A DNA stretch of 46,300 bases from Rhodocyclaceae bacterium (GCA_050305135.1 JBNLET010000242.1:1-46300); one strand, 5' to 3'; counted from the stretch's first letter, positions 34,666-46,300 are shown. Numbers and translations are program-made. Notes: generated by a model not told the origin, from the sequence alone.

Positions 34666-34793
34666 AGCGGCCCGCGGATCGCAGCCGTTCCGACGGCGAT
34701 CGGCGGCGGGAGCGGCGACGTCGAGACGCCGAAGCGGCCATCGGCATCTTGCCGACAGGCCACCAGCCGTTGCCATGATGAAATTCGGATCCG

Positions 34794-34824
34794 TGACATA
34801 AAATGTCTTGACATTATATGTCAC
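34794..34824. promoter_or_regulatory. perfect palindrome GTGACATAAAATGTC-TTGACATTATATGTCAC overlapping -35 (TTGACA)/-10-like elements of the PspA-flotillin operon promoter; candidate operator
   Basis: Read directly from the sequence, about 60 bp upstream of the ATG at 34884. It is the only AT-rich patch in an otherwise GC-rich intergenic region. The 8-bp arms GTGACATA/TATGTCAC flank an internal ATGTC/GACAT. Confidence 0.4.
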
Positions 34825-34883
34825 AGCGTCTAGCCTCGAATCATGCAATTCGGGTCATCTCACCGCATACGCAAGGAGATCAC

Positions 34884-35300
34884 ATGAAGCAACTACAACA
34901 GCAGTTGCGCGGCATCGACGACGCGGTGTCGTCGGTCATGGGAGGGCTGTCGGTACAACTGCATCCGATACCCGGCGACGTGCCCGTGCTGCAGCTCAGC
35001 ATCGAGGGGCGCGACGAGCTGCCGGTGTTCGTGACGAGTTCCGACGCCCAGGTTCTGTGCATGTGCTTCCTGTGGCGCGATGACGAGGTCGATGCCGCGA
35101 AGCGCCTCGGCCTGCTCGAAACCATGCTCGAGCTGAACCCGTCGATTCCGCTGTCTTCGTTCGGCAAGGTGGGCGACCAGTTCGTGCTGTTCGGTGCGCT
35201 CAGCCGCAGTTCCGGTCTGGCCGACATCGCCGCCGATGTTGCCGCCCTCAGCGACAACGCGCTGGACGCCCTCGGCGCTTTGGCCGAATACCTCAACTAA
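34884..35300 (+). CDS. YjfI-like (DUF2170) small cytoplasmic protein, first gene of the operon (tentative family assignment)
   Basis: 138 aa from the ATG at 34884 with a good AAGGAGA RBS. The size and position, immediately upstream of a PspA-family gene, match the E. coli yjfI-yjfJ arrangement. Confidence 0.5.
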   Translation: MKQLQQQLRGIDDAVSSVMGGLSVQLHPIPGDVPVLQLSIEGRDELPVFVTSSDAQVLCMCFLWRDDEVDAAKRLGLLETMLELNPSIPLSSFGKVGDQFVLFGALSRSSGLADIAADVAALSDNALDALGALAEYLN

Positions 35301-35312
35301 CGGGAGCCCGGA

Positions 35313-36029
35313 ATGTCCGTCATCAACAAGATCGTCACGCTGCTGCGCGGGTCCATCCGCGAGATCGGCGAAAGCATCGTCGACAACAACGCCGACAGGA
35401 TCTACGAACAGGAGATCCTGGACGGCAAGAACAGCATCGACCAGGCCAAGAAGGACCTGGCCGGTGTCGTCGCCAAGGAAATGCAGAGCGCTCGCGAGAT
35501 GGATCGTCTGCAGGGCGAGATCGAGCGCTACGAAGGCACGGCGGTGGAGGCGCTGGGCAAGGGGCAGGAGGCGCTGGCCGAGGAGGTGGCGGGACGGGTC
35601 GCCGAGCTGGAGGCCGAACTCGAAGTGCAGACCCGCGCCCACGCCAACTTCGCGCTCCAGGTCGGCCAGTTGAAGGACCTGATCAAGAGCGCCGAGGCCA
35701 AGGTGCGGGAGCACGAGCGGGAGATCGCAGCGGTGCGCGCGACCGAAAGCGTCTACAAGGCGAGCCAGTCGATTTCGGACAGCATCGTCAGTTCGGGCTC
35801 CAGGCTGGGATCGGCGCGGGAGTCGCTGGAGCGGATCAAGAAGCGCCACGAGGATTTCGCCGACCGTCTTGCGGCGGCGGAAAGACTCGACGCCGAACTG
35901 GGCGAAAAGGCGCTCGACGCCAAGCTCGATGCCGCGGGAATCGGCGCCGACGCGGAGCGCCGAAGTCGCGTGCTGGCGCGCATCAAGGCGCGGCAGGAAG
36001 CGGCCCGGGGCGGCAGCGAAAAGGCATGA
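35313..36029 (+). CDS. PspA/IM30 (Vipp1/YjfJ) family protein, ESCRT-III-like coiled-coil
   Basis: 238 aa. The PspA-like N-terminus is MSVINKIVTLLRGSIREIGESIVD…YEQEI…, and the long heptad coiled coil matches the PspA_IM30 architecture. Confidence 0.8.
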   Translation: MSVINKIVTLLRGSIREIGESIVDNNADRIYEQEILDGKNSIDQAKKDLAGVVAKEMQSAREMDRLQGEIERYEGTAVEALGKGQEALAEEVAGRVAELEAELEVQTRAHANFALQVGQLKDLIKSAEAKVREHEREIAAVRATESVYKASQSISDSIVSSGSRLGSARESLERIKKRHEDFADRLAAAERLDAELGEKALDAKLDAAGIGADAERRSRVLARIKARQEAARGGSEKA

Positions 36030-36355
36030 GCCTGGGCCGCAAGCCGGCGCGCTGGCAGAGCTCGGATCGCGCCATCAAAGCCGTGCAGATCGCCTTCGAC
36101 GTGGAGCAGAACGTACTCGACGCGGTACGCCGCTCGGCCTTCGAAAACGATCGCTCGACGCCGGACGAGATCCGTCATCTGCTCGGCCTGCCGATATCCG
36201 GCCGGCCCAAGCGCCCGCGCCTGACCGTTTCGCTGACGCCCGACGACTACGACCTGCTGGCCCGTCGCTATGGTCTCGATGCCGCGGACCGCCTCGGCAT
36301 CAAGGAGCAGGTGACGCGGGAACTGATCGCGTTCGCCGCCGCCCGCGACCAATGA
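36026..36355 (+). CDS. small hypothetical protein with two ribbon-helix-helix-like segments
   Basis: 109 aa with an ATGA overlap to the upstream gene. KRPRLTVSLTPDDYDLLARRYG resembles a CopG/ParD-type RHH beta-strand plus helix, and AIKAVQIAFDVEQNVLDAVRRSA is a second similar unit. Confidence 0.45.
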   Translation: MSLGRKPARWQSSDRAIKAVQIAFDVEQNVLDAVRRSAFENDRSTPDEIRHLLGLPISGRPKRPRLTVSLTPDDYDLLARRYGLDAADRLGIKEQVTRELIAFAAARDQ

Positions 36356-36415
36356 GGCCGATGCTATTGTCCTGTAACGATCGCTTTGTCCGGATGTCTT
36401 GCCTGGGATGTGAAC

Positions 36416-37063
36416 ATGATCGGCTTTTATGACGCAGCCACGAGTTTTCCGACCGCGCTGCTGACCGTATTGCTCGCGGCAGTACTGGGCTATTGGCTGC
36501 TGGCCATCGTCGGGCTGGTCGAATTCGACGACGGCGGGCTGTCGCTCGACATGGACGTGGAGATGGACGGCGTCGAGCTGGGCGCGGTGGCGAGCTACCT
36601 GGTGGCGTTCGGTCTGAGCGGTGTGCCGATCTCGGTGGTCGTGACGCTGATCGTGCTGCTCGCATGGACGCTGTGCTGCCTGGCCGCGATGTGGCTGCTG
36701 CCGCTGCTGCCGGGTTCGGTGCCGGGCGCGCTCGGCGGAATCGCCGCCCTGGTGGTGTCGCTCGCTGCCGCGCTGCCGGTGACGGCGGCGGTGCTCCGAC
36801 CGATGCGTGGCCTGTTCGTCACCCATGCTGCGCGCTCGAACGCCAGCCTGATCGGCGAGTCCTGCAAGATCCTCACCCGCAGCGTCGATGCCGGCTTCGG
36901 CCGGGCCGAGGTCAGTACGCGCGGCGCCAGCCTGAACATCAAGGTATGGGCGCAGGCACCGAATGCGCTGAGACGCGGCAGCGTGGCGCGAATTCTCGAC
37001 TACGACGCTGCGAGCGGCCGCTACCAGGTCGTCCCGGAAGACGTCATCGGGGCTGAAAAATAA
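36416..37063 (+). CDS. YqiJ/NfeD-like inner-membrane protein (multi-TM N-domain + C-terminal OB-fold beta-domain), the usual flotillin partner
   Basis: About 215 aa, with an alternative upstream ATG at 36386. It has 4 predicted TM helices, then …GESCKILTRSVDAGFGRAEVSTRGASLNIKVWA…GSVARILDYD…YQVVP…, typical of the NfeD C-terminal domain. It sits directly upstream of the flotillin gene, as in yqiJK/yuaFG. Confidence 0.65.
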   Translation: MIGFYDAATSFPTALLTVLLAAVLGYWLLAIVGLVEFDDGGLSLDMDVEMDGVELGAVASYLVAFGLSGVPISVVVTLIVLLAWTLCCLAAMWLLPLLPGSVPGALGGIAALVVSLAAALPVTAAVLRPMRGLFVTHAARSNASLIGESCKILTRSVDAGFGRAEVSTRGASLNIKVWAQAPNALRRGSVARILDYDAASGRYQVVPEDVIGAEK

Positions 37064-37114
37064 TCGAACGACAACGGCCGGCACGGTCCGGCTTCGACTG
37101 AGCAAGGGGAATCC

Positions 37115-39226
37115 ATGGAACCGATCTACGTCGCAGTGGGCATTCTCGCCCTGCTGGTACTGATCCTGTTCGCCGCGTTCGCGAAGTTCTACCGCAAGGT
37201 GGAGCAGGGCTACGCGATGATCGTCAACACCTTGCGCTCCGAGCCCGAGGTGACGTTCACGGGTCGGATGGTCTATCCGATCATCCACAAGGCCGAGCTG
37301 ATGGACATCGCGCTGAAGACGATCGAGATCGATCGCACCGGCAACGAGGGCCTGATCTGTCGCGACAACATCCGCGCCGACATCAAGGTGAAGTTCTTCG
37401 TGCGCGTGAACAAGACCGCCGAGGACGTGCTCAAGGTGGCCCAGGGCATCGGCTGCGACCGGGCATCCAACCACGACACGCTGGAAGAGCTCTTCTCGGC
37501 GAAGTTTTCCGAAGCGCTCAAGACGGTCGGCAAGGCGATGGATTTCGTCGACCTGTACCAGGCCCGCGACCGGTTCCGCGACGAGATCATTCGCCAGATC
37601 GGCGACGACCTGTCCGGTTACGTGCTGGAAGACGCTGCGATCGACTTTCTCGAGCAGACGCCGCTGGCCAAGCTCGACCCGGACAACATCCTCGACGCCC
37701 AGGGCATCAAGAAGATCACCGAGCTGACCGCGGTCGAGCACGTGCGCACCAACGACCTGCGCCGCGACGAGGAAATGCAGATCAAGAAGAAAGACGTCGA
37801 GACGCGCGAGGCGATGCTCGAACTCGAACGCCAGCAGGCCGACGCCGAGGCCAGGCAGCAGCGCGAGGTGGCCTCGGTGCGGGCGCGCGAGATGGCCGAG
37901 ACGGCGCGGGTCGAGTCGGAGGAGCACGCCCGTTCCGAACTGGCCCGGCTGGAGGCCGAGCAATCGATCGCCGTGCAGCAGGAGAACACCCAGCGCGAAA
38001 AGGAGGTGGCCGAGAAGAACCGCCAGCGCGCGATCGCCATCGAGGAGGAGAAGGTGACCCGGGCGCGCGATCTCGAAATCGTCGATCGCGAGAAGGAAGT
38101 GACGCTGCAGCGTATCGAGAAGGACAAGGCGGTCGAGCTGCAGAAGAAGCACATCGCCGACGTGGTGCGCGAGCGCATCGTCGTCGAGCGCACCGTGGCG
38201 GAACAGGAAGAGGCCATCAAGGAGCTGCGCACGGTGGCCGAGGCCGAGCGCACGCGCAAGGCCACGGTGGTGATGGCGGAAGGCCAGGCGGAAGAGAAGC
38301 TGGTCATCGAGGTCAAGGCCGCCGAGGCGCAGGAACGGCGAGCCCACCACCGCGCGACCGAGGAGCTGACGCTGGCCGAGGCCCGGCTCAAGGTGGCCGA
38401 GAAGGAGGCCGACGCCAAGAAACGCGAGGCCGAGGGCATCGAGGCGCTGGAGGCGGCCGCCGGCCTGGCCCAGGCCAAGGTCATGATGGTCAATGCCGAT
38501 GCCAGCGAGAAGCAGGGGCTGGCCGACGCCAAGGTGAAGATCGCCGAATCCGAGGCGGTCGAGAAGTACGGCCTGGCCGAAGCCGAAGCGCTGCGCGCCC
38601 GGCTGGAGGCCGAAGCGGAGGGCAAGCGCAAGCTCGGACTGGCCGAGGTCGAGGTGCGTACGGCGGATGCCGAGGCCATCGTCGAGTCCGGCATGGCCGA
38701 GGCGAAGGTCGTCGAGGCACGCTTCGCGGCTGAAGCCAACGGGCTGCGCGAGAAGTTCGGCGCCATGTCCGCGATGACCGATGCGACCCGGGCGCACGAG
38801 GAGTTCCGCATGCAGTTGGACAAGTCGCACATCGAGACGCTGAAGGGCATCGACGCGCAGACCGGCATTGCGCGCGAACAGGCCGAGGTGCTGGGCAAGG
38901 CGCTGGGCAATGCGCACATCGACATCGTCGGCGGCGAAGGCGACTACTTCGAACGCTTCGTCAATGCGCTGGCGGTCGGCAAGGGCATCGACGGCGCGAT
39001 CCACAAGAGCGATACGCTGCAGATCGCCTTGAAGGACCATCTGAACGGCGATCGCGACTTGGTCGGCGACGTCAGGGACCTGGTCGGCGCGCTCGGCCAA
39101 TCGTCGGACGAATTGCAGAACCTGAGCGTCGCTGCGCTGGTGGCGCGCATTGCGCGGGACGGCACCGAGCAGCAGAAGAGTGCATTGAGCACGTTGATTG
39201 GCGGCCTCGGCAAAGGATTGCAGTGA
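37115..39226 (+). CDS. flotillin-family SPFH/Band-7 protein (YqiK/FloT-like), unusually long (703 aa) with extended EA-rich coiled coil
   Basis: It has an N-terminal TM/hairpin (IYVAVGILALLVLILFAAFA). The SPFH domain runs through about aa 200. After it comes roughly 400 aa of flotillin-type AEAE/coiled-coil repeats (…AEAEALRARLEAEAEGKRKLGLAEVEV…). A GGGGA RBS precedes the start. Confidence 0.85.
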   Translation: MEPIYVAVGILALLVLILFAAFAKFYRKVEQGYAMIVNTLRSEPEVTFTGRMVYPIIHKAELMDIALKTIEIDRTGNEGLICRDNIRADIKVKFFVRVNKTAEDVLKVAQGIGCDRASNHDTLEELFSAKFSEALKTVGKAMDFVDLYQARDRFRDEIIRQIGDDLSGYVLEDAAIDFLEQTPLAKLDPDNILDAQGIKKITELTAVEHVRTNDLRRDEEMQIKKKDVETREAMLELERQQADAEARQQREVASVRAREMAETARVESEEHARSELARLEAEQSIAVQQENTQREKEVAEKNRQRAIAIEEEKVTRARDLEIVDREKEVTLQRIEKDKAVELQKKHIADVVRERIVVERTVAEQEEAIKELRTVAEAERTRKATVVMAEGQAEEKLVIEVKAAEAQERRAHHRATEELTLAEARLKVAEKEADAKKREAEGIEALEAAAGLAQAKVMMVNADASEKQGLADAKVKIAESEAVEKYGLAEAEALRARLEAEAEGKRKLGLAEVEVRTADAEAIVESGMAEAKVVEARFAAEANGLREKFGAMSAMTDATRAHEEFRMQLDKSHIETLKGIDAQTGIAREQAEVLGKALGNAHIDIVGGEGDYFERFVNALAVGKGIDGAIHKSDTLQIALKDHLNGDRDLVGDVRDLVGALGQSSDELQNLSVAALVARIARDGTEQQKSALSTLIGGLGKGLQ

Positions 39227-39795
39227 GCCAGGCAAGAACCCCGCAGCGCTGTCCGGGCTGCCGCGGCGGCGACTGGTCGCATGCCCGCCTGGCCGAGCAC
39301 TTGGCGGCCTGGCGCTGCGGCGCCTGTGGCGGGCACTTGCTGTCGCTGGCGGACTATCGGCGCTGGCGCAGCGTACATCCAGCCGAGCCCGCGCTGGGCG
39401 AAGCGGAGGCTGCGCAGGGAGGCGATGCGCAATCCGACGCGGCACGGCTGTGCCCGGCTTGCGGCCGGATCATGAGTCGGCTGCGCGGCGGCAGCGATCC
39501 GGCGTTCGTGCTGGACCGCTGCAACGCTTGCCAGTGGCTTTGGCTGGACGCCGGCGAATGGCGACGGCTGCAGGGCAACGAACTGCACCGGCAGCTCGAC
39601 CGCGTGCTGAGCGACGGTTGGCAGCGGCGGCTCGAGGCCGACGACCGGGCCGCTCGAAGGGAGGACGACCTGCGCCGCCGGCTCGGCGACGAGGTCTTCG
39701 ACGAGGCGCTGCGCATCCGGGCCTGGCTCGAGCGCCTGCCGAGGCGGCAAGAGGTGTTGCGCCTGTTGGGCGGCGCGCCCCAGGACGGCGACTGA
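39223..39795 (+). CDS. double zinc-ribbon protein (two CxxC-N18-20-CxxC modules) with Arg/Glu-rich C-terminal helix
   Basis: 190 aa from a GTG overlapping the flotillin stop. The cysteine pairs are CPGC…CGAC and CPAC…CNAC. Its stop abuts the ATG of the giant gene (TGAATGATG). Confidence 0.5.
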   Translation: MSQARTPQRCPGCRGGDWSHARLAEHLAAWRCGACGGHLLSLADYRRWRSVHPAEPALGEAEAAQGGDAQSDAARLCPACGRIMSRLRGGSDPAFVLDRCNACQWLWLDAGEWRRLQGNELHRQLDRVLSDGWQRRLEADDRAARREDDLRRRLGDEVFDEALRIRAWLERLPRRQEVLRLLGGAPQDGD

Positions 39796-42700
39796 ATGAT
39801 GGCCGAACGCAACAGCGCCGAAGACACGCCGGCCGGCGACAGCGCCAGCTACGAACTGCTCCGCGAGCGTCTGCGCAGGCAGGCCGAGCGGCTCGCGGCC
39901 AAGACCGCTGCGCTCAACGAAGCGCGCCTGGGCACCTTCGGCCGCTCGGAAATGGAGCTCCTGGCGCGGCTCAAGGCGCGCACCGACAACAACTGCGTCG
40001 CGCGCGACATCGTGCGCATCGGCGATCTGCTGCTGTTCGGCTACAACGTCTTCGTCGGACTGCGGCAGGAAATCCGCGCCGAGGACGTCTTCGCGCTGTT
40101 CCGTCTCGAGCAGACCGCCGCCGGCACCACACTCGAGGCGGTGCCGCTGCAGGGGAGTCTCTTGGCCGAGGGGCGCTTTGCGGCCGACTTCCGCGAACTC
40201 TATACGTACTACAAGCATGCCAGCCTGACGCAGTTGCGAGTGGCCGGCGAGACGCTGCTGGCCGCCTTCCGGATCGGCCAGAAGCTGCAGGATCTGCGCG
40301 TCTTCCGCTGGCGCATCGAGGCCGACGGCAGTGTCCGCTACATCGACAACCGGGGCGAGCGCGACATCGCGCTGCCGGCCTCGCACGATTTCGAATGGAC
40401 CGCGCTGAGCAGGGCCGATCACGTCGGCGGCAAGCACCCGCACGTGAACATCCTCGACACCGTCTTCGTCGAGACCGTCGGCGGCGATCTGACGGTCAAG
40501 ATCGAGAACAACACCGAGAGCGGGCTCGGCATCTTCAGCGAACCGGTGGACGACCGCAACCAGTCGCTGGCCGACGCCGACTTCGCCTACGCCCGGCTCG
40601 GCTCGCTGATCCTGATCAAGGTCCGCCCGTACCGGGAAAAGCAGGACCGCTACCTGGTGTTCAATTCGATCACCAGCCAGGTGCTGCGCGTCGACGCCAT
40701 CGGCCGTTCCTGCGTCCAGTTGCCCGAGGACCACGGCATCATCTTCCCGGGCGGCTACTACCTGCAGTCGGGCGAGTCGAAGCGCTTCGAGCTGCCCGGC
40801 CAACTGGCCGAAGGTTTGCTGTTCAAGCGCATGCTGCGCTCGCCCAACGGCGAGGACGTGCTGTACGTCTTCTACCAGCCGGAAGAGGGCCACTACGCGC
40901 TGTTCGCCTACAACCTGATCGAAAAACGCCTCGCCGCGCCGATCGTCTCGAACGGCTATGCGCGCTTAGAGGACGGCCGCATCCTGGTCATGCAGGCGGA
41001 AGGCGCGGAGGCCTCGCGCCAGCACCCGATGCAACTGTGGCATACGCCGTTCTTCAGCGACGAACATGCGGCGCGAACGCCGGCGGCCGAGGACTTCTTC
41101 GGCCGGATCGGCAATGCGGACCTGGTGCGGGGGATTTCCGAGCTGCATGCGGTTGCCAGGGCGGCCGCCACCGGCAGTCCGACCCGTGCCTCGTACGAGG
41201 CACTGATCCGCCAGGCGATGCGCTGCCTCGATGGGTACTTCTGGCTGGCCGAGCCCGAGACCGGCGGCGTCGCCGAAGAATTGCGCGGCATTCTCGCCAG
41301 TGCGCGCGCGACGCTGGACGAGTTCGACAAGGTCGAATCGATCCGACGCAACAGCGAACAGGCGTTGTCGCGCAGCGAGCAGAAGCAGCGCGAACTGCTG
41401 TCGTCCATCGCCGGCATGCTGTGGAAGACCCCCACCGATTTCGTGCAGGCCCTCGCGAGCCTGCGAGAACAGCGCGGCCATCTGCACGGCCTGCGCGATC
41501 TGCGCTACGTGGACGCCGGGCGGGTCGAATCGATGGATGCCGCGCTGGCCAGCGAGGAAGCGCGGATCGGCACTCGGGCGGTGGCCTTCCTGGCGGACGA
41601 GCATGCCTTCGACGGCCAGGGCAGGGAGCTCGAACGCCTCGCCCAGGCGCTGCCGGCCAGCGAAACGAGCGAGGCGATCGATGCATTGGTGAGCGAGCTC
41701 GACGCGCTGGCGGCCGGCTTCGACCTGCTGACCGAACACCTCGGCAGCCTCACCGGCGGCGACGCTGTCGTGCGTACCCGCATCCTGGATCGGATCGCCG
41801 CCGTCTATGCCGAACTCAACCGGACACGGGCCCAGGCGCGGCAGCGGCGCAGCGGCCTGGGGGCGAGCGAGGCCGCGGCCGAGTTCGGCGCCCAGTTCAA
41901 GCTCTTCGGCCAGGCCGTCGACAATGCGCTGGAACTGGCCGATACGCCCGAGAAATGCGACGAATTCCTGACCCGTCTGCTGGCGCAACTGGAGGAGATC
42001 GAAGGCCGCTTTGCCGAGCACGAGCGCTTCCTCGACGACGTCGCAGGCAAGCGCGAAAGCGTCTACGAGGCCTTGTCGAGCCGCCGCCAATCGCTGCTCG
42101 AAGCGCGCCAGCGGCGCAGTCAGGCGCTTGCCGAAGCGGGCCGGAGAATCCTGCAGGGCATTCCACGGCGGCTGGCCAAGCTCGCCGACGCCGACGCGGT
42201 GCATGCCTACTTCGCGTCCGACGTTCTGATCGCCAAACTCAGGCAGCAGATCGAGTCGATCCGCGAACTCGGCGCCGCGGTGCTGGCCGACGAGCTCGCG
42301 ACCCAGCTCAAGACCGCCCGCGACCAGGCGATCGGTGCCGTGCGCGACCGCAGCGAGCTGCTCTCCGCCGACGGCAACACGCTGCGCTTCGGCAAACACG
42401 CGTTCACGATCAATGCGCAGCCGCTCGACCTGACCCTGGTGCCGCGGGACGGGAGCCTGAGCTACCACCTCAACGGAACCGACTACTTCTCACCGGTGCG
42501 CGACGCCAGGCTCGACACCTTGGGCCCGTTCCTGTCCCAGGCACTGCTGTCCGAAACGCCTGAGCTGTATCGGGCCGAATATCTGGCCGGCGCGCTGCTG
42601 AGCGAATGCATCGCCGGCCAGGGACCGATCGAGTGCGAGCTGCTGCAGAAGCATTGCCTGGAAGGCGAAGCCGGCCTCGAGAAGATGCTGGCCGTGGTGC

Positions 42701-45060
42701 GCCGATTCGCGGCGGATCGCTACCAGGAGGGCTACCAGAAGGGCGTGCACGACCACGATGCGGCCCGCCTGCTGCAGGCGCTGGTGCCGATGCAGAGCGA
42801 AGCCGGCTTGCTGGCATATTCGCCCGAGGCGCGCGCATTGTCGTATCTGTACTGGCATTTCGGAGCGGACGCGCCGGATCGTGCAGCACTTTCGCGCATG
42901 GCGCGGTCGAGCACCGCGATCGAAGCCTCGTTCGGCGACCGCAGCGCGCTGTCCAGGGTCGAGTGTGCGCTGGCCGAGCAGTTGGCCGCCTTCGCGCCGC
43001 GTTTCGGCTTCGACGGCGCAGACCGCCCGCTGTGCGCTGGCGCCGCGCGCTACCTGGTGCGCCAGCTGGCGGCTCCGCGCGGCGGCGAGGCCTGGGTCGT
43101 GTCTGGCAGCGGCGCCGATCTGGCCGGCGCGCTGCTGAAGCAACTGGAACAAGAGGGTCGCCTGTCCGACTGGCAGTCCGACCTGGCCGCCGCCTCGGCG
43201 CAGGATCGCTGGTTGATGGCGAGCGACTGGGCAGCCGCGTTCGCCGGCCGACAGGCGGCCGGCCCTTGGGTCATGGACGCCGCGACAGTACTGCTGGGCG
43301 GTTCGGAGCGACAACGGCACAACGTGCGCCTCGACGCCCGGGTCGACGGCCTGCTCGGCGAGCACGAGCGGATCACGGACGGGGCCTCGGTCCTCAACCT
43401 GAACGATTTCTGGCGCCGCTACGACGATCACGCGACAAAGATCGTACCCGCCTTCCGCGCGCTGCAGCAACTGCGCATGTCCCTGGTCAAGGAGGAGCGG
43501 CGCCGCCTCGGGCTCGAGCAGTTCAAGGCCAATCCGCTCTCGTCCTTCGTCCGCAACCGGCTGATCGACCAGGTCTATTTGCCGATCATCGGCGACAACC
43601 TGGCGAAGCAGATCGGTGCCGCCGGCGCGGCCAACCGCAGCGATCGCATGGGCATGCTGCTGCTGATTTCGCCGCCCGGCTACGGCAAGACGACGCTGAT
43701 GGAGTACGTGGCGGATCGCCTCGGCCTGGTCTTCGTTCGCATCAACTGCCCGGCGCTCGGCCACGGCGTCAGCTCGATCGATCCGTCCGGCGCCGCGAGC
43801 GCCGCCGCCCGGCAGGAGCTCGAGAAGCTTAACCTCGGCTTGGCGATGGGCAACAACGTGATGCTGTATCTGGACGACATCCAGCACACCCGGCCCGAGT
43901 TCCTGCAGAAGTTCATTTCGCTCGCCGACGGCACGCGGCGCATCGAAGCCGTGCCCGACGGCAAGCCCGTGACCTGCGACCTGCGCGGCAAGCGCTTCGC
44001 GATCGTCATGGCCGGCAACCCCTACACCGAATCGGGCGAGCTGTTCAGGATTCCCGACATGCTGGCGAACCGGGCCGACATCTACAACCTGGGTGACGTG
44101 CTGTCCGGGCACGAGTCACTGTTTGCCGCCTCCTATCTCGAAAATGCGCTGACCGCCAACCCGCTGCTGATGCCGCTCGCCTCGCGCAGTCCGAGCGATG
44201 TCCACCTGCTGCTGCGGATGGCCGACGGAGAGGACATCCCAGGCAGCGAGTTCGCGCATCCGTACAGCGGCGTCGAACTGAACGAACTGGTCGAGCTGCT
44301 GCGACGAATGAGCCGTGCCAGGGCCCTGCTGCTGAAGGTCAACCGGGCCTACATCGAATCGGCCGCGCAACAGGACGCCTACCGCGACGAGCCTCCGTTC
44401 AAGCTCCAGGGCAGCTACCGCAACATGGCCAAGCTGGCGGCCAGGATCACGCCGCTGATGAGCGAGGCGGAACTCGACGAACTGCTGCGAGACCACTACC
44501 GCGGCGAGGCGCAGACGCTGACCGCCGGGGCGGAGGAAAACCTCCTCAAGCTCGCCCACCTGCTCGGCTCGCCGAGCGCGGAAGAACGCCTGCGCTGGAA
44601 AGAGATTTGCGAAGAATTCGTGCGCCGTCGCAAGCTCGGCGGCCCCGACGCCGACGGCAGCATGCGGCTGGCCGGCAGCGTGCTAGAGGTGGCCCGCGCA
44701 GTCGAAGCGCTGAAGCCCGGGGCGGGGGTCGATCGCGCACTGCGCGACGGGCTCGACGGCATCAACAAGGCCGTGGCGGAGATCCGGCCCAGCGTCAACG
44801 TCGAGACGCCGCAGCCCGACCTGAGTGGCGTCGAGTCGGCACTGCGGGAAATGCAACAGGCCTACGAAAAGGTGTTGTTGCCACTCGTCAATGCCACCTA
44901 TCTCAAGATGCGCCTCGACCACAGCCTGTGGGACGAGGTCAAGAACATCACCGCGATGATGGAGAAGGCGTCGCTCAAGTCGTGTGCCGACAAATCGCCG
45001 ACGGCCGGGAAGACAACGAAGGCAAGCCGGACGAAGGGCAGTCCGGCAAGCAAGGGTTGA
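39796..45060 (+). CDS. giant 1754-aa protein with a single recognisable AAA_5 (MoxR/dynein/McrB-type) P-loop ATPase module near aa 1285-1435; the remaining ~1250 N-terminal residues and ~300 C-terminal residues are unassigned
   Basis: The frame is uninterrupted and GC3-rich. Walker A is LLLISPPGYGKTTLMEY (nt ~43669-43695), and Walker B is MLYLDDIQH (nt ~43861-43881). The sensor/arginine-finger region FAIVMAGNPYTESGELFRIPDMLANRADIY matches the AAA_5 pattern (…NP…G…L..AL.NR). Several coiled-coil stretches are present. Confidence 0.8.
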   Translation: MMAERNSAEDTPAGDSASYELLRERLRRQAERLAAKTAALNEARLGTFGRSEMELLARLKARTDNNCVARDIVRIGDLLLFGYNVFVGLRQEIRAEDVFALFRLEQTAAGTTLEAVPLQGSLLAEGRFAADFRELYTYYKHASLTQLRVAGETLLAAFRIGQKLQDLRVFRWRIEADGSVRYIDNRGERDIALPASHDFEWTALSRADHVGGKHPHVNILDTVFVETVGGDLTVKIENNTESGLGIFSEPVDDRNQSLADADFAYARLGSLILIKVRPYREKQDRYLVFNSITSQVLRVDAIGRSCVQLPEDHGIIFPGGYYLQSGESKRFELPGQLAEGLLFKRMLRSPNGEDVLYVFYQPEEGHYALFAYNLIEKRLAAPIVSNGYARLEDGRILVMQAEGAEASRQHPMQLWHTPFFSDEHAARTPAAEDFFGRIGNADLVRGISELHAVARAAATGSPTRASYEALIRQAMRCLDGYFWLAEPETGGVAEELRGILASARATLDEFDKVESIRRNSEQALSRSEQKQRELLSSIAGMLWKTPTDFVQALASLREQRGHLHGLRDLRYVDAGRVESMDAALASEEARIGTRAVAFLADEHAFDGQGRELERLAQALPASETSEAIDALVSELDALAAGFDLLTEHLGSLTGGDAVVRTRILDRIAAVYAELNRTRAQARQRRSGLGASEAAAEFGAQFKLFGQAVDNALELADTPEKCDEFLTRLLAQLEEIEGRFAEHERFLDDVAGKRESVYEALSSRRQSLLEARQRRSQALAEAGRRILQGIPRRLAKLADADAVHAYFASDVLIAKLRQQIESIRELGAAVLADELATQLKTARDQAIGAVRDRSELLSADGNTLRFGKHAFTINAQPLDLTLVPRDGSLSYHLNGTDYFSPVRDARLDTLGPFLSQALLSETPELYRAEYLAGALLSECIAGQGPIECELLQKHCLEGEAGLEKMLAVVRRFAADRYQEGYQKGVHDHDAARLLQALVPMQSEAGLLAYSPEARALSYLYWHFGADAPDRAALSRMARSSTAIEASFGDRSALSRVECALAEQLAAFAPRFGFDGADRPLCAGAARYLVRQLAAPRGGEAWVVSGSGADLAGALLKQLEQEGRLSDWQSDLAAASAQDRWLMASDWAAAFAGRQAAGPWVMDAATVLLGGSERQRHNVRLDARVDGLLGEHERITDGASVLNLNDFWRRYDDHATKIVPAFRALQQLRMSLVKEERRRLGLEQFKANPLSSFVRNRLIDQVYLPIIGDNLAKQIGAAGAANRSDRMGMLLLISPPGYGKTTLMEYVADRLGLVFVRINCPALGHGVSSIDPSGAASAAARQELEKLNLGLAMGNNVMLYLDDIQHTRPEFLQKFISLADGTRRIEAVPDGKPVTCDLRGKRFAIVMAGNPYTESGELFRIPDMLANRADIYNLGDVLSGHESLFAASYLENALTANPLLMPLASRSPSDVHLLLRMADGEDIPGSEFAHPYSGVELNELVELLRRMSRARALLLKVNRAYIESAAQQDAYRDEPPFKLQGSYRNMAKLAARITPLMSEAELDELLRDHYRGEAQTLTAGAEENLLKLAHLLGSPSAEERLRWKEICEEFVRRRKLGGPDADGSMRLAGSVLEVARAVEALKPGAGVDRALRDGLDGINKAVAEIRPSVNVETPQPDLSGVESALREMQQAYEKVLLPLVNATYLKMRLDHSLWDEVKNITAMMEKASLKSCADKSPTAGKTTKASRTKGSPASKG

Positions 45061-45132
45061 ACCAAGCTCGCGAGCGAACTTCCCGCCGATTGATCGGTGC
45101 GGCAGCAGGGGACTGGCCGGCAGGCGCGTGCG

Positions 45133-45345
45133 CTACTCGGCCCAGTCCCGGCGCACGAATGCTCGCCACAGGCCCGGGTCGTGCGCACTCGGGGTGGCCT
45201 GCCCGATGAGGGCGTCGAGGCTGTCGGTAGGGCCGAGGTGGGCGCGGCCGGCAAGTCGGCCGGCTCGGTAGATCAGCAATTCGGGCAAGTCGTCGGGCAG
45301 GTAGTCGCCTATGAAGGGGGCGTGTTCGTCGAGGTCGAGCCACAT
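45133..45345 (-). CDS. 70-aa ORF, possibly a real small protein or the C-terminal remnant of a gene truncated by the adjacent AT-rich insertion
   Basis: MWLDLDEHAPFIGDYLPDDLPELLIYRAGRLAGRAHLGPTDSLDALIGQATPSAHDPGLWRAFVRRDWAE has native-like GC. Its 5' end abuts the point where GC content collapses, about 45350. Confidence 0.3.
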   Translation of the reverse strand: MWLDLDEHAPFIGDYLPDDLPELLIYRAGRLAGRAHLGPTDSLDALIGQATPSAHDPGLWRAFVRRDWAE

Positions 45346-45592
45346 TCGTCATGTTGTCGAAAATGCATGACATGCATTCATTGTGCCGAAACTCGACGAG
45401 GTTCCGTTGTCGATTTCTAGTTTGCTTCTCTGGGGCGCCGAGAACGCTGGCCACTTGAATGGTGCTGGAGCCGAGTGCAACCGGGCCGATGCTTGAGTAT
45501 GGGTCGATCTGAGCCGTATGGATTCTTGCGTCTTGCGAGTAGCCTATTAGCCTCCAAACCAACTCTGTGCCCATCGAACAGGTCGGTGCCTT

Positions 45593-45985
45593 CTAAAGAG
45601 AAAATGGCTGCATCTTACTGATTCTGTGATCCCATGCGCCCCTTTCGAACAAAGTTAACGCTCTCTGAGATATATCTTCGTCATGAAATCCCGTCAATGT
45701 AATTCCCACCTTCAGGAATACAATGAATCCGAGATAGTGCATTGGATTGGGGTCGGCTGTCATGATCTTTGCCAAGACCAGATGTGACTCTTCTCCGAAA
45801 ATATTGACGCCAAGAAACGTAATATTCTCCATTTGGCGTCCGAAGCCAATGTGAGTAAGTTTGTAAGGGGTTGAGGAGGCGTATGCCAACTTCATGAACG
45901 ACCTAAACTCTACGCGCTGCTTGAGCCAATTCTTGCTTATATGCTCTGCCGGACCCAGGATATTCTCAACATCGGCTGGAAGCAT
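45593..45985 (-). CDS. hypothetical 130-aa protein encoded in low-GC (foreign) DNA
   Basis: The ORF lies inside the ~45350-46180 AT-rich segment. There is no convincing RBS and I recognise no motifs. Confidence 0.3.
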   Translation of the reverse strand: MLPADVENILGPAEHISKNWLKQRVEFRSFMKLAYASSTPYKLTHIGFGRQMENITFLGVNIFGEESHLVLAKIMTADPNPMHYLGFIVFLKVGITLTGFHDEDISQRALTLFERGAWDHRISKMQPFSL

Positions 45986-46181
45986 TCCAAATGTCAGCGA
46001 TCCGGCGCCGCTGTAAGGTCTTAGGTTGAAGGGCAGGGGAAACGCACTTATTTGTCATCGTTGGCGCCTTGAAATGCCACCGTCGTCGACTTTCTGAAAA
46101 AGTCGTTCACTTTCAGTGCGATATGCAAGCATCTTGTGAACTCTCTGGATTTCCGGTCCACTCTCGCTTTTTGGGAAAGCG

Positions 46182-46300
46182 ATGGGATCGAAGACATTGG
46201 CGGCGTACTTTTCCGAGATCGAGGATCCCCGACGCACGGGGTTCGCACATCGACATGACCTGGTGGAGATCCTAGTGGTCGCGACGTGTGCCTTGTTCAG
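46182..46300 (+). mobile_element. 5' end of an ISAs1-family (H-repeat-associated) transposase gene; the IS continues beyond the window
   Basis: Translation from the ATG at 46182 gives MGSKTLAAYFSEIEDPRRTGFAHRHDLVEILVVATCALF. This matches the conserved ISAs1 N-terminal domain (…HF..I.DPR……H.L.DIL.I..CA.L.G…). Confidence 0.6.

What the first reader, a model, noticed from the sequence alone, without database searches (positions are those of the whole stretch)
34794..45060. Seven-gene PspA(ESCRT-III-like)-NfeD-flotillin operon ending in a giant AAA_5 ATPase: candidate undescribed membrane-remodelling system
Seven ORFs are packed with overlaps or near-zero gaps, indicating one transcript. The gaps are ATGA overlap at 36026, GTG/TGA overlap at 39223, TGAATG at 39796, and 12 bp and 51 bp elsewhere; the one exception is a 60-bp gap before the preferred yqiJ-like start at 36416 (zero if the 36386 ATG is used). 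The operon runs from 34884 to 45060. The genes are:
- a YjfI-like protein (DUF2170);
- a PspA/IM30 coiled-coil protein;
- a small RHH-like protein;
- a YqiJ/NfeD membrane protein;
- a 703-aa flotillin;
- a double zinc-ribbon protein;
- a 1754-aa protein whose only recognisable module is a MoxR/dynein-type AAA_5 ATPase.

PspA/Vipp1 are bacterial ESCRT-III homologues, and flotillin/NfeD form membrane microdomain scaffolds. In archaea and eukaryotes, ESCRT-III polymers are remodelled by a dedicated AAA ATPase (Vps4). No equivalent partner is established for bacterial PspA-family proteins. The operonic fusion of both scaffold types with a giant mechano-ATPase and a Zn-ribbon adaptor is therefore a plausible new envelope-stress, membrane-repair or vesiculation machine. 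An anti-phage defence role is the alternative, given the neighbouring island. A perfect palindromic operator overlaps the promoter (34794-34824).
Basis: partly seen in the sequence, partly recalled or inferred. Interest (0 to 1): 0.85.

Follow-up and report, generated by a model that had tools for sequence, protein, structure and literature searches.

The report
Known PspA-flotillin-giant ATPase (bac) operon
The seven genes are real and form one conserved operon, but it is the beta-proteobacterial version of an already described membrane-stress gene cluster (the Pseudomonas aeruginosa bacABCDEF operon), whose giant ATPase still has no known job.

Summary
Seven tightly packed + strand genes (34884-45060) encode DUF2170/YjfI, a YjfJ-type PspA, a 109-aa RHH-like protein, a YqiJ-like membrane protein, a YqiK-type flotillin, a double zinc-ribbon protein and a 1754-aa ATPase.

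The system is not undescribed. Ravi et al. 2024 (PMC11237479) describe this operon type. Its Pseudomonas aeruginosa homologue is bacABCDEF (PA3732-PA3727), shown by RT-PCR to be co-transcribed and linked to biofilm, rhamnolipid, swarming and virulence phenotypes.

The giant protein belongs to a large family (Pfam DUF3686 + DUF7902 + a MoxR/AAA_5-type AAA+ module), which NCBI names 'DNA repair ATPase'.

My census of 83 loci changes the emphasis:
- The invariant core is YqiJ-like -> flotillin -> giant ATPase (73/73 loci with enough upstream DNA), across Proteobacteria, Myxococcota, Actinomycetota and Acidobacteriota.
- The YjfI-PspA pair (36/71), the RHH-like gene (14/71), the zinc-ribbon gene (11/71) and a PLD gene (17/72) are lineage-specific add-ons.

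One apparently new detail: the palindrome is two GACAT-N3-ATGTC sites overlapping a conserved TTGACA -35 box. Such sites occur only where the 109-aa gene is present, which marks that protein as the likely autorepressor.

The mechanism of the ATPase is still unknown.

The parts
34795..34822 (.). Two tandem 13-bp palindromic operator sites, GACATAAAATGTC (34795-34807) and GACATTATATGTC (34810-34822). Together they form the near-perfect 32-bp inverted repeat 34793-34824.
   Evidence: 15-nt arms, 93% complementary; 2 exact matches in the window against 0.03 expected, none elsewhere; exact sites lie upstream of the yjfI-like gene in 15 of 16 loci carrying the 109-aa gene, in 0 of 23 dyad-containing loci lacking it, and nowhere else in about 1.8 Mb of fetched loci.
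34808..34836 (+). Inferred sigma-70 promoter: -35 TTGACA (34808-34813), 17-bp spacer, -10 TAGCCT (34831-34836). Operator 2 covers the -35 box and the spacer.
   Evidence: in 10 of the 12 other orf109-carrying loci aligned there, TTGACA is embedded in the palindrome, and most of these show a TAnnnT hexamer 16-17 bp downstream. The consensus scanner did not call it, because the -10 box matches only 3 of 6 positions. No sigma-54-like site better than chance lies upstream.
34884..35300 (+). YjfI/BacA-like protein (DUF2170; CesT/Tir-type chaperone fold), 138 aa; RBS AAGGAG lies upstream.
   Evidence: Pfam DUF2170 E 3.4e-27. E. coli YjfI E 6e-10. PDB 8q8o 'DUF2170 family protein' E 1.5e-7. NCBIfam BacA model 42 bits, below its 300-bit equivalog cut-off.
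35313..36029 (+). PspA/IM30-family protein of the YjfJ/BacB subtype, 238 aa.
   Evidence: Pfam PspA_IM30 122.7 bits, E 2.3e-35. 29% identity over the full length to E. coli YjfJ, E 1e-22. No significant BLASTP match to E. coli PspA.
36026..36355 (+). 109-aa protein with two beta-alpha-alpha (ribbon-helix-helix-like) repeats; predicted autorepressor that binds the GACAT-N3-ATGTC sites.
   Evidence: Alignment of 14 homologues shows two repeats. RHH hits are weak only: RHH_1 7.6e-4 in one member, FitA-like 0.062, RHH_9 0.052. Gene and operator co-occur strictly (Fisher p 6e-10, not corrected for phylogeny).
36416..37063 (+). YqiJ-like / BacC-like inner-membrane protein, 215 aa: hydrophobic N-terminal two thirds (3-4 TM segments, residues ~6-130) and a small C-terminal soluble beta-rich domain.
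   Evidence: Hydropathy scan. No Pfam hit in any of 58 family members. hhalign of the family profile against E. coli YqiJ: probability 90.4%, E 1.4e-6, 128 colinear columns. Always located immediately upstream of the flotillin gene.
37115..39226 (+). YqiK-type flotillin / BacD-like protein, 703 aa: N-terminal TM helix (residues 1-29), SPFH domain, long Glu/Ala-rich coiled coil, conserved C-terminal domain.
   Evidence: BLASTP to E. coli YqiK: 28% over 460 aa, E 8e-37. 7 of 69 family members hit Pfam Band_7, best 5e-11. TM segment. The window protein itself has no Pfam hit.
39223..39795 (+). Double zinc-ribbon protein, 190 aa (CxxC...CxxC at residues 10-35 and 77-103), with an Arg-rich helical C-terminal half. 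Lineage-specific insert between the flotillin and ATPase genes.
   Evidence: Pfam Zn_ribbon_TFIIB E 1.3e-6. In the alignment of homologues the cysteines are only partly conserved: the second ribbon's four Cys are present in 10 of 13 sequences and the first ribbon's N-terminal pair varies; the C-terminal half is conserved. Present between Flot and Giant in 11 of 71 loci, including 3 that lack the PspA dyad.
39796..45060 (+). Giant ATPase, 1754 aa (BacE-like; NCBI name 'DNA repair ATPase'): N-terminal helix 17-48; roughly six-bladed beta-propeller 55-415; long helices 420-855; small beta unit 879-900; helical domain 904-1170; one MoxR-type AAA+ module ~1250-1560; helical C-terminus.
   Evidence: Pfam DUF3686 1.2e-191, DUF7902 9.2e-23, AAA_5 24.1 bits. 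AlphaFold models: pLDDT 83.9 for residues 1-1200 and 76.0 for residues 1101-1754. More than 6000 90%-identity clusters. 1295 50%-identity clusters for the N-terminal 1200 aa.
43543..44475 (+). AAA+ module of the giant protein: Walker A SPPGYGKT (1292-1299), Walker B LYLDDIQH (1357-1364), sensor-1 MAGNPY (1405-1410), candidate Arg finger R1426.

Best explanation
This is the Rhodocyclales/Burkholderiales form of a known but mechanistically uncharacterised inner-membrane stress and remodelling operon. That operon is the P. aeruginosa 'bac' cluster, or the CesT-PspA/flotillin/AAA+ operon of Ravi et al.

Shown:
- Seven co-oriented, translationally coupled genes.
- An invariant three-gene core: a YqiJ-like membrane protein, a YqiK-type flotillin, and a giant beta-propeller/coiled-coil/MoxR-type AAA+ ATPase.
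- Lineage-specific additions to that core: the YjfI(BacA)-PspA(YjfJ/BacB) pair, an RHH-like protein, a zinc-ribbon protein and, in other genomes, PLD, rhomboid, TelA or TerB-like genes.

Inferred mechanism:
1. The 109-aa tandem-RHH protein represses a sigma-70 promoter by binding two GACAT-N3-ATGTC sites that cover the -35 box.
2. After induction, flotillin and its YqiJ-like partner build an SPFH cage or microdomain on the cytoplasmic face of the inner membrane.
3. The ATPase probably forms a ring through its single AAA+ module. It docks on that scaffold through its propeller and coiled-coil arm, possibly with the zinc-ribbon protein as adaptor. It then uses ATP to remodel, disassemble or extract clients from the scaffold.
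4. The YjfJ-type PspA is held by its YjfI chaperone and is recruited to the same site to seal or reshape damaged membrane.

The ATPase's primary partner is therefore the flotillin module. PspA is an optional effector.
For: Gene content and junctions.

Published description of the same operon type: PMC11237479.

P. aeruginosa evidence:
- The locus has DUF2170 (206 aa), PspA (231), 213 aa, 688 aa, DUF3686 (1746) and PLDc_2 (230), followed by yaeQ, recJ and lasB. These sizes match PA3732-PA3729 (16, -, 23 and 76 kDa).
- The first gene of six Pseudomonas-type loci passes the NCBIfam BacA equivalog cut-off.
- RT-PCR links bacA through bacF. A bacA mutant accumulates BacB-F 6- to 13-fold (PMC10948618).

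Core and accessory genes:
- Core conservation is 73/73 loci. The median gap from flotillin to ATPase is 118 bp, and the two often overlap.
- Accessory frequencies.
- The accessory genes are all membrane- or lipid-directed: PLDc_2, Rhomboid, TelA, TerB-like.

ATPase: catalytic residues are invariant, and the fold is MoxR/midasin-like.

Operator and regulator covary.

An SPFH protein is needed to bring PspA to the membrane in B. subtilis (PMC8581546). SPFH proteins form membrane cages (established knowledge: HflK/C, QmcA-YbbJ, flotillin 1/2 structures).
Against: - No experiment shows any interaction or activity for the giant ATPase. The bac papers do not discuss BacE as an ATPase.
- Typical MoxR ATPases work with a VWA-domain partner. 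No family reaching the 5-locus reporting threshold other than those listed turned up next to the ATPase, and nothing identified as VWA was seen; only some neighbour clusters were Pfam-scanned.
- The N-terminal fold search gave only generic propeller matches (TM-scores <= 0.12), so the docking role of the propeller is a guess.
- RHH assignment of the 109-aa protein is weak at the sequence level, and its DNA binding is inferred only from co-occurrence among related genomes.
- P. aeruginosa is reported to use a sigma-54 promoter, with BacA as the negative regulator. Regulation therefore differs between lineages and cannot be transferred.
Confidence: 0.6

Rival explanations
1. One reading: the giant ATPase is a dedicated Vps4-like disassemblase of PspA (ESCRT-III) polymers, and flotillin is secondary.
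For: PspA and the ATPase share an operon here and in 36 of 71 loci. No Vps4-like partner is known in bacteria (PMC7619361). Ravi et al. also link PspA to AAA+ chaperones.
Against: 35 of 71 loci, including all Actinomycetota, Myxococcota and Acidobacteriota loci, lack an adjacent PspA but keep flotillin, the YqiJ-like gene and the ATPase. The AAA+ module is closest to MoxR/midasin, not to Vps4. No MIT-like domain was detected. PspA genes elsewhere in those genomes could still be the substrate, as Ravi et al. suggest.
Confidence: 0.2
2. It is an anti-phage or anti-competitor defence system. The scaffold senses membrane perturbation, and the ATPase activates an effector such as the PLD.
For: PLD (HKD) nucleases or phospholipases and large NTPases are common in defence systems. 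A PLDc_2 gene follows the ATPase in 17 of 72 loci. The contig's 3' end has low-GC DNA and a transposase fragment.
Against: PADLOC shows no hit apart from a few marginal, non-specific ones (E 5e-4 or weaker). The window lacks the PLD. The operon's GC matches the host. Flanking genes are housekeeping and differ in every genome. In P. aeruginosa the ATPase cluster has 3222 member sequences, consistent with a core gene. Published phenotypes concern biofilm, rhamnolipid and osmotic stress.
Confidence: 0.08
3. The giant protein is a DNA repair ATPase, as its database name says, and its adjacency to membrane genes is incidental.
For: The Pfam DUF3686 description reads 'ATPase involved in DNA repair', and the NCBI name is 'DNA repair ATPase'. 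There are weak RuvB P-loop hits. recJ lies two genes downstream in P. aeruginosa.
Against: No paper in the library mentions DUF3686. RuvB hits cover only the P-loop (about 50 residues, 19-20 bits against cut-offs of 280-300). No nuclease or DNA-binding domain was found. The strict 73/73 linkage is to two membrane proteins, across phyla.
Confidence: 0.03

Closest known systems
Pseudomonas aeruginosa bacABCDEF operon (PA3732-PA3727; biofilm-associated cluster)
   Same: Same order of homologous genes: DUF2170/YjfI (BacA), PspA-type (BacB), ~213-aa membrane protein (BacC), ~690-aa flotillin-like protein (BacD), ~1750-aa DUF3686 ATPase (BacE). Co-transcription across all junctions was shown by RT-PCR.
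   Different: The window operon adds the 109-aa RHH-like gene and the zinc-ribbon gene, and lacks the PLD gene (BacF). Its BacA homologue is shorter (138 vs 206 aa) and scores far below the equivalog cut-off. Its promoter looks sigma-70 with palindromic operators rather than the proposed sigma-54 site. The giant proteins are about 48% identical.
CesT/Tir-PspA + band-7/flotillin + YqiJ/YuaF + novel AAA+ ATPase operon of Ravi et al. 2024 (mSystems; PMC11237479)
   Same: The description matches gene for gene. [quoted passage not shown] My models and census reproduce this.
   Different: That text does not mention the RHH-like regulator or its operator. It frames the system from the PspA side, whereas my census shows flotillin/YqiJ-like/ATPase as the invariant unit.
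E. coli yqiJ-yqiK and yjfI-yjfJ gene pairs
   Same: The window's four upstream structural genes are homologues of these two pairs.
   Different: In E. coli the two pairs sit at separate loci. Neither is linked to a giant ATPase. yjfIJ is followed by polyamine-related genes.
MoxR-family AAA+ ATPases (NorQ, CbbQ) and midasin/dynein AAA_5 modules
   Different: There is a single AAA+ module at the C-terminal end of a 1754-aa chain, with propeller and coiled-coil regions. No VWA/MIDAS partner gene was seen. The margin over ClpB-type hits is small (10.8).
Vps4 / CdvC with ESCRT-III
   Same: An AAA+ ATPase is encoded next to an ESCRT-III-fold (PspA-family) protein, so an analogous polymer-remodelling role is conceivable.
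   Different: Different AAA+ clade. No MIT domain. The linkage to PspA is facultative.

Membership tests
bac / CesT-PspA-flotillin-AAA+ operon | DUF2170 (YjfI/BacA) gene immediately followed by a PspA_IM30 gene | tested here: met
   Pfam E 3.4e-27 and 2.3e-35; 12-bp gap.
bac / CesT-PspA-flotillin-AAA+ operon | YqiJ/YuaF-like multi-TM protein followed by a TM + SPFH + coiled-coil flotillin | tested here: met
   hhalign to EcYqiJ: probability 90%, E 1.4e-6. BLASTP to EcYqiK: E 8e-37. TM segments.
bac / CesT-PspA-flotillin-AAA+ operon | [quoted passage not shown] | tested here: met
   DUF3686 E 1.2e-191. Model shows helix 17-48 and propeller 55-415. About 48% identity to the giant ATPases of the six Pseudomonas-type loci that carry BacA equivalogs; P. 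aeruginosa has the same DUF3686 gene in this position.
bac / CesT-PspA-flotillin-AAA+ operon | PLD (HKD) gene after the ATPase (optional; 'in some Proteobacteria') | tested here: not met
   No PLDc_2 ORF in 45061-46300. It is also absent in the closest relative, L087.
bac / CesT-PspA-flotillin-AAA+ operon | Sigma-54 promoter upstream of the first gene (proposed for P. aeruginosa) | tested here: not met
   No TGGCAC-N5-TTGC-like site better than chance in 34690-34884. A conserved TTGACA-17-TAnnnT promoter is found instead.
PspA/IM30 (ESCRT-III superfamily) | Full-length match to PF04012 above the gathering score | tested here: met
   122.7 bits against a cut-off of 33.9, residues 3-228. YjfJ subtype.
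SPFH / flotillin | Direct match to Pfam Band_7 (PF01145) or Flot (PF15975) | tested here: not met
   No hit for the window protein even at E <= 10. Only 7 of 69 relatives hit Band_7 and 1 of 69 hits Flot.
SPFH / flotillin | Homology to a named flotillin-family protein over the SPFH and coiled-coil regions, plus an N-terminal membrane anchor | tested here: met
   E. coli YqiK: 28% over 460 aa, E 8e-37. TM segment 1-29.
NfeD / YqiJ (DUF1449) | Match to the family model, and a C-terminal NfeD-type OB-fold domain | tested here: inconclusive
   No Pfam hit in 58 members and no PDB hit. The profile matches EcYqiJ at 90% probability. The fold of the C-terminal domain was not modelled.
MoxR / AAA_5 clade of AAA+ ATPases | AAA_5 match; Walker A/B and sensor 1 intact; closest structures are MoxR/midasin/dynein | tested here: met
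MoxR / AAA_5 clade of AAA+ ATPases | Cognate VWA/MIDAS-domain partner encoded nearby | tested here: inconclusive
   Clustering of neighbouring ORFs in 83 loci gave PLD, rhomboid, TelA and TerB-like families; nothing identified as VWA was seen. Some clusters had no Pfam hit, others were not scanned, and no targeted VWA search was run.
Vps4-type ESCRT-III ATPase | MIT domain plus a classic-clade (meiotic) AAA module | tested here: not met
Known anti-phage defence systems (PADLOC-DB 2.0) | Match of any of the seven proteins to a defence-system model | tested here: not met
   Only coiled-coil noise for PspA and P-loop-only IetA hits at E 0.003-0.005.
Ribbon-helix-helix repressors | Match to an RHH model; beta-alpha-alpha motif; binding to a palindromic operator | tested here: inconclusive
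   Weak hits (best RHH_1 7.6e-4 in 1 of 14 members). Two beta-alpha-alpha-like repeats, judged by eye. Operator co-occurrence is strong, but DNA binding is untested.

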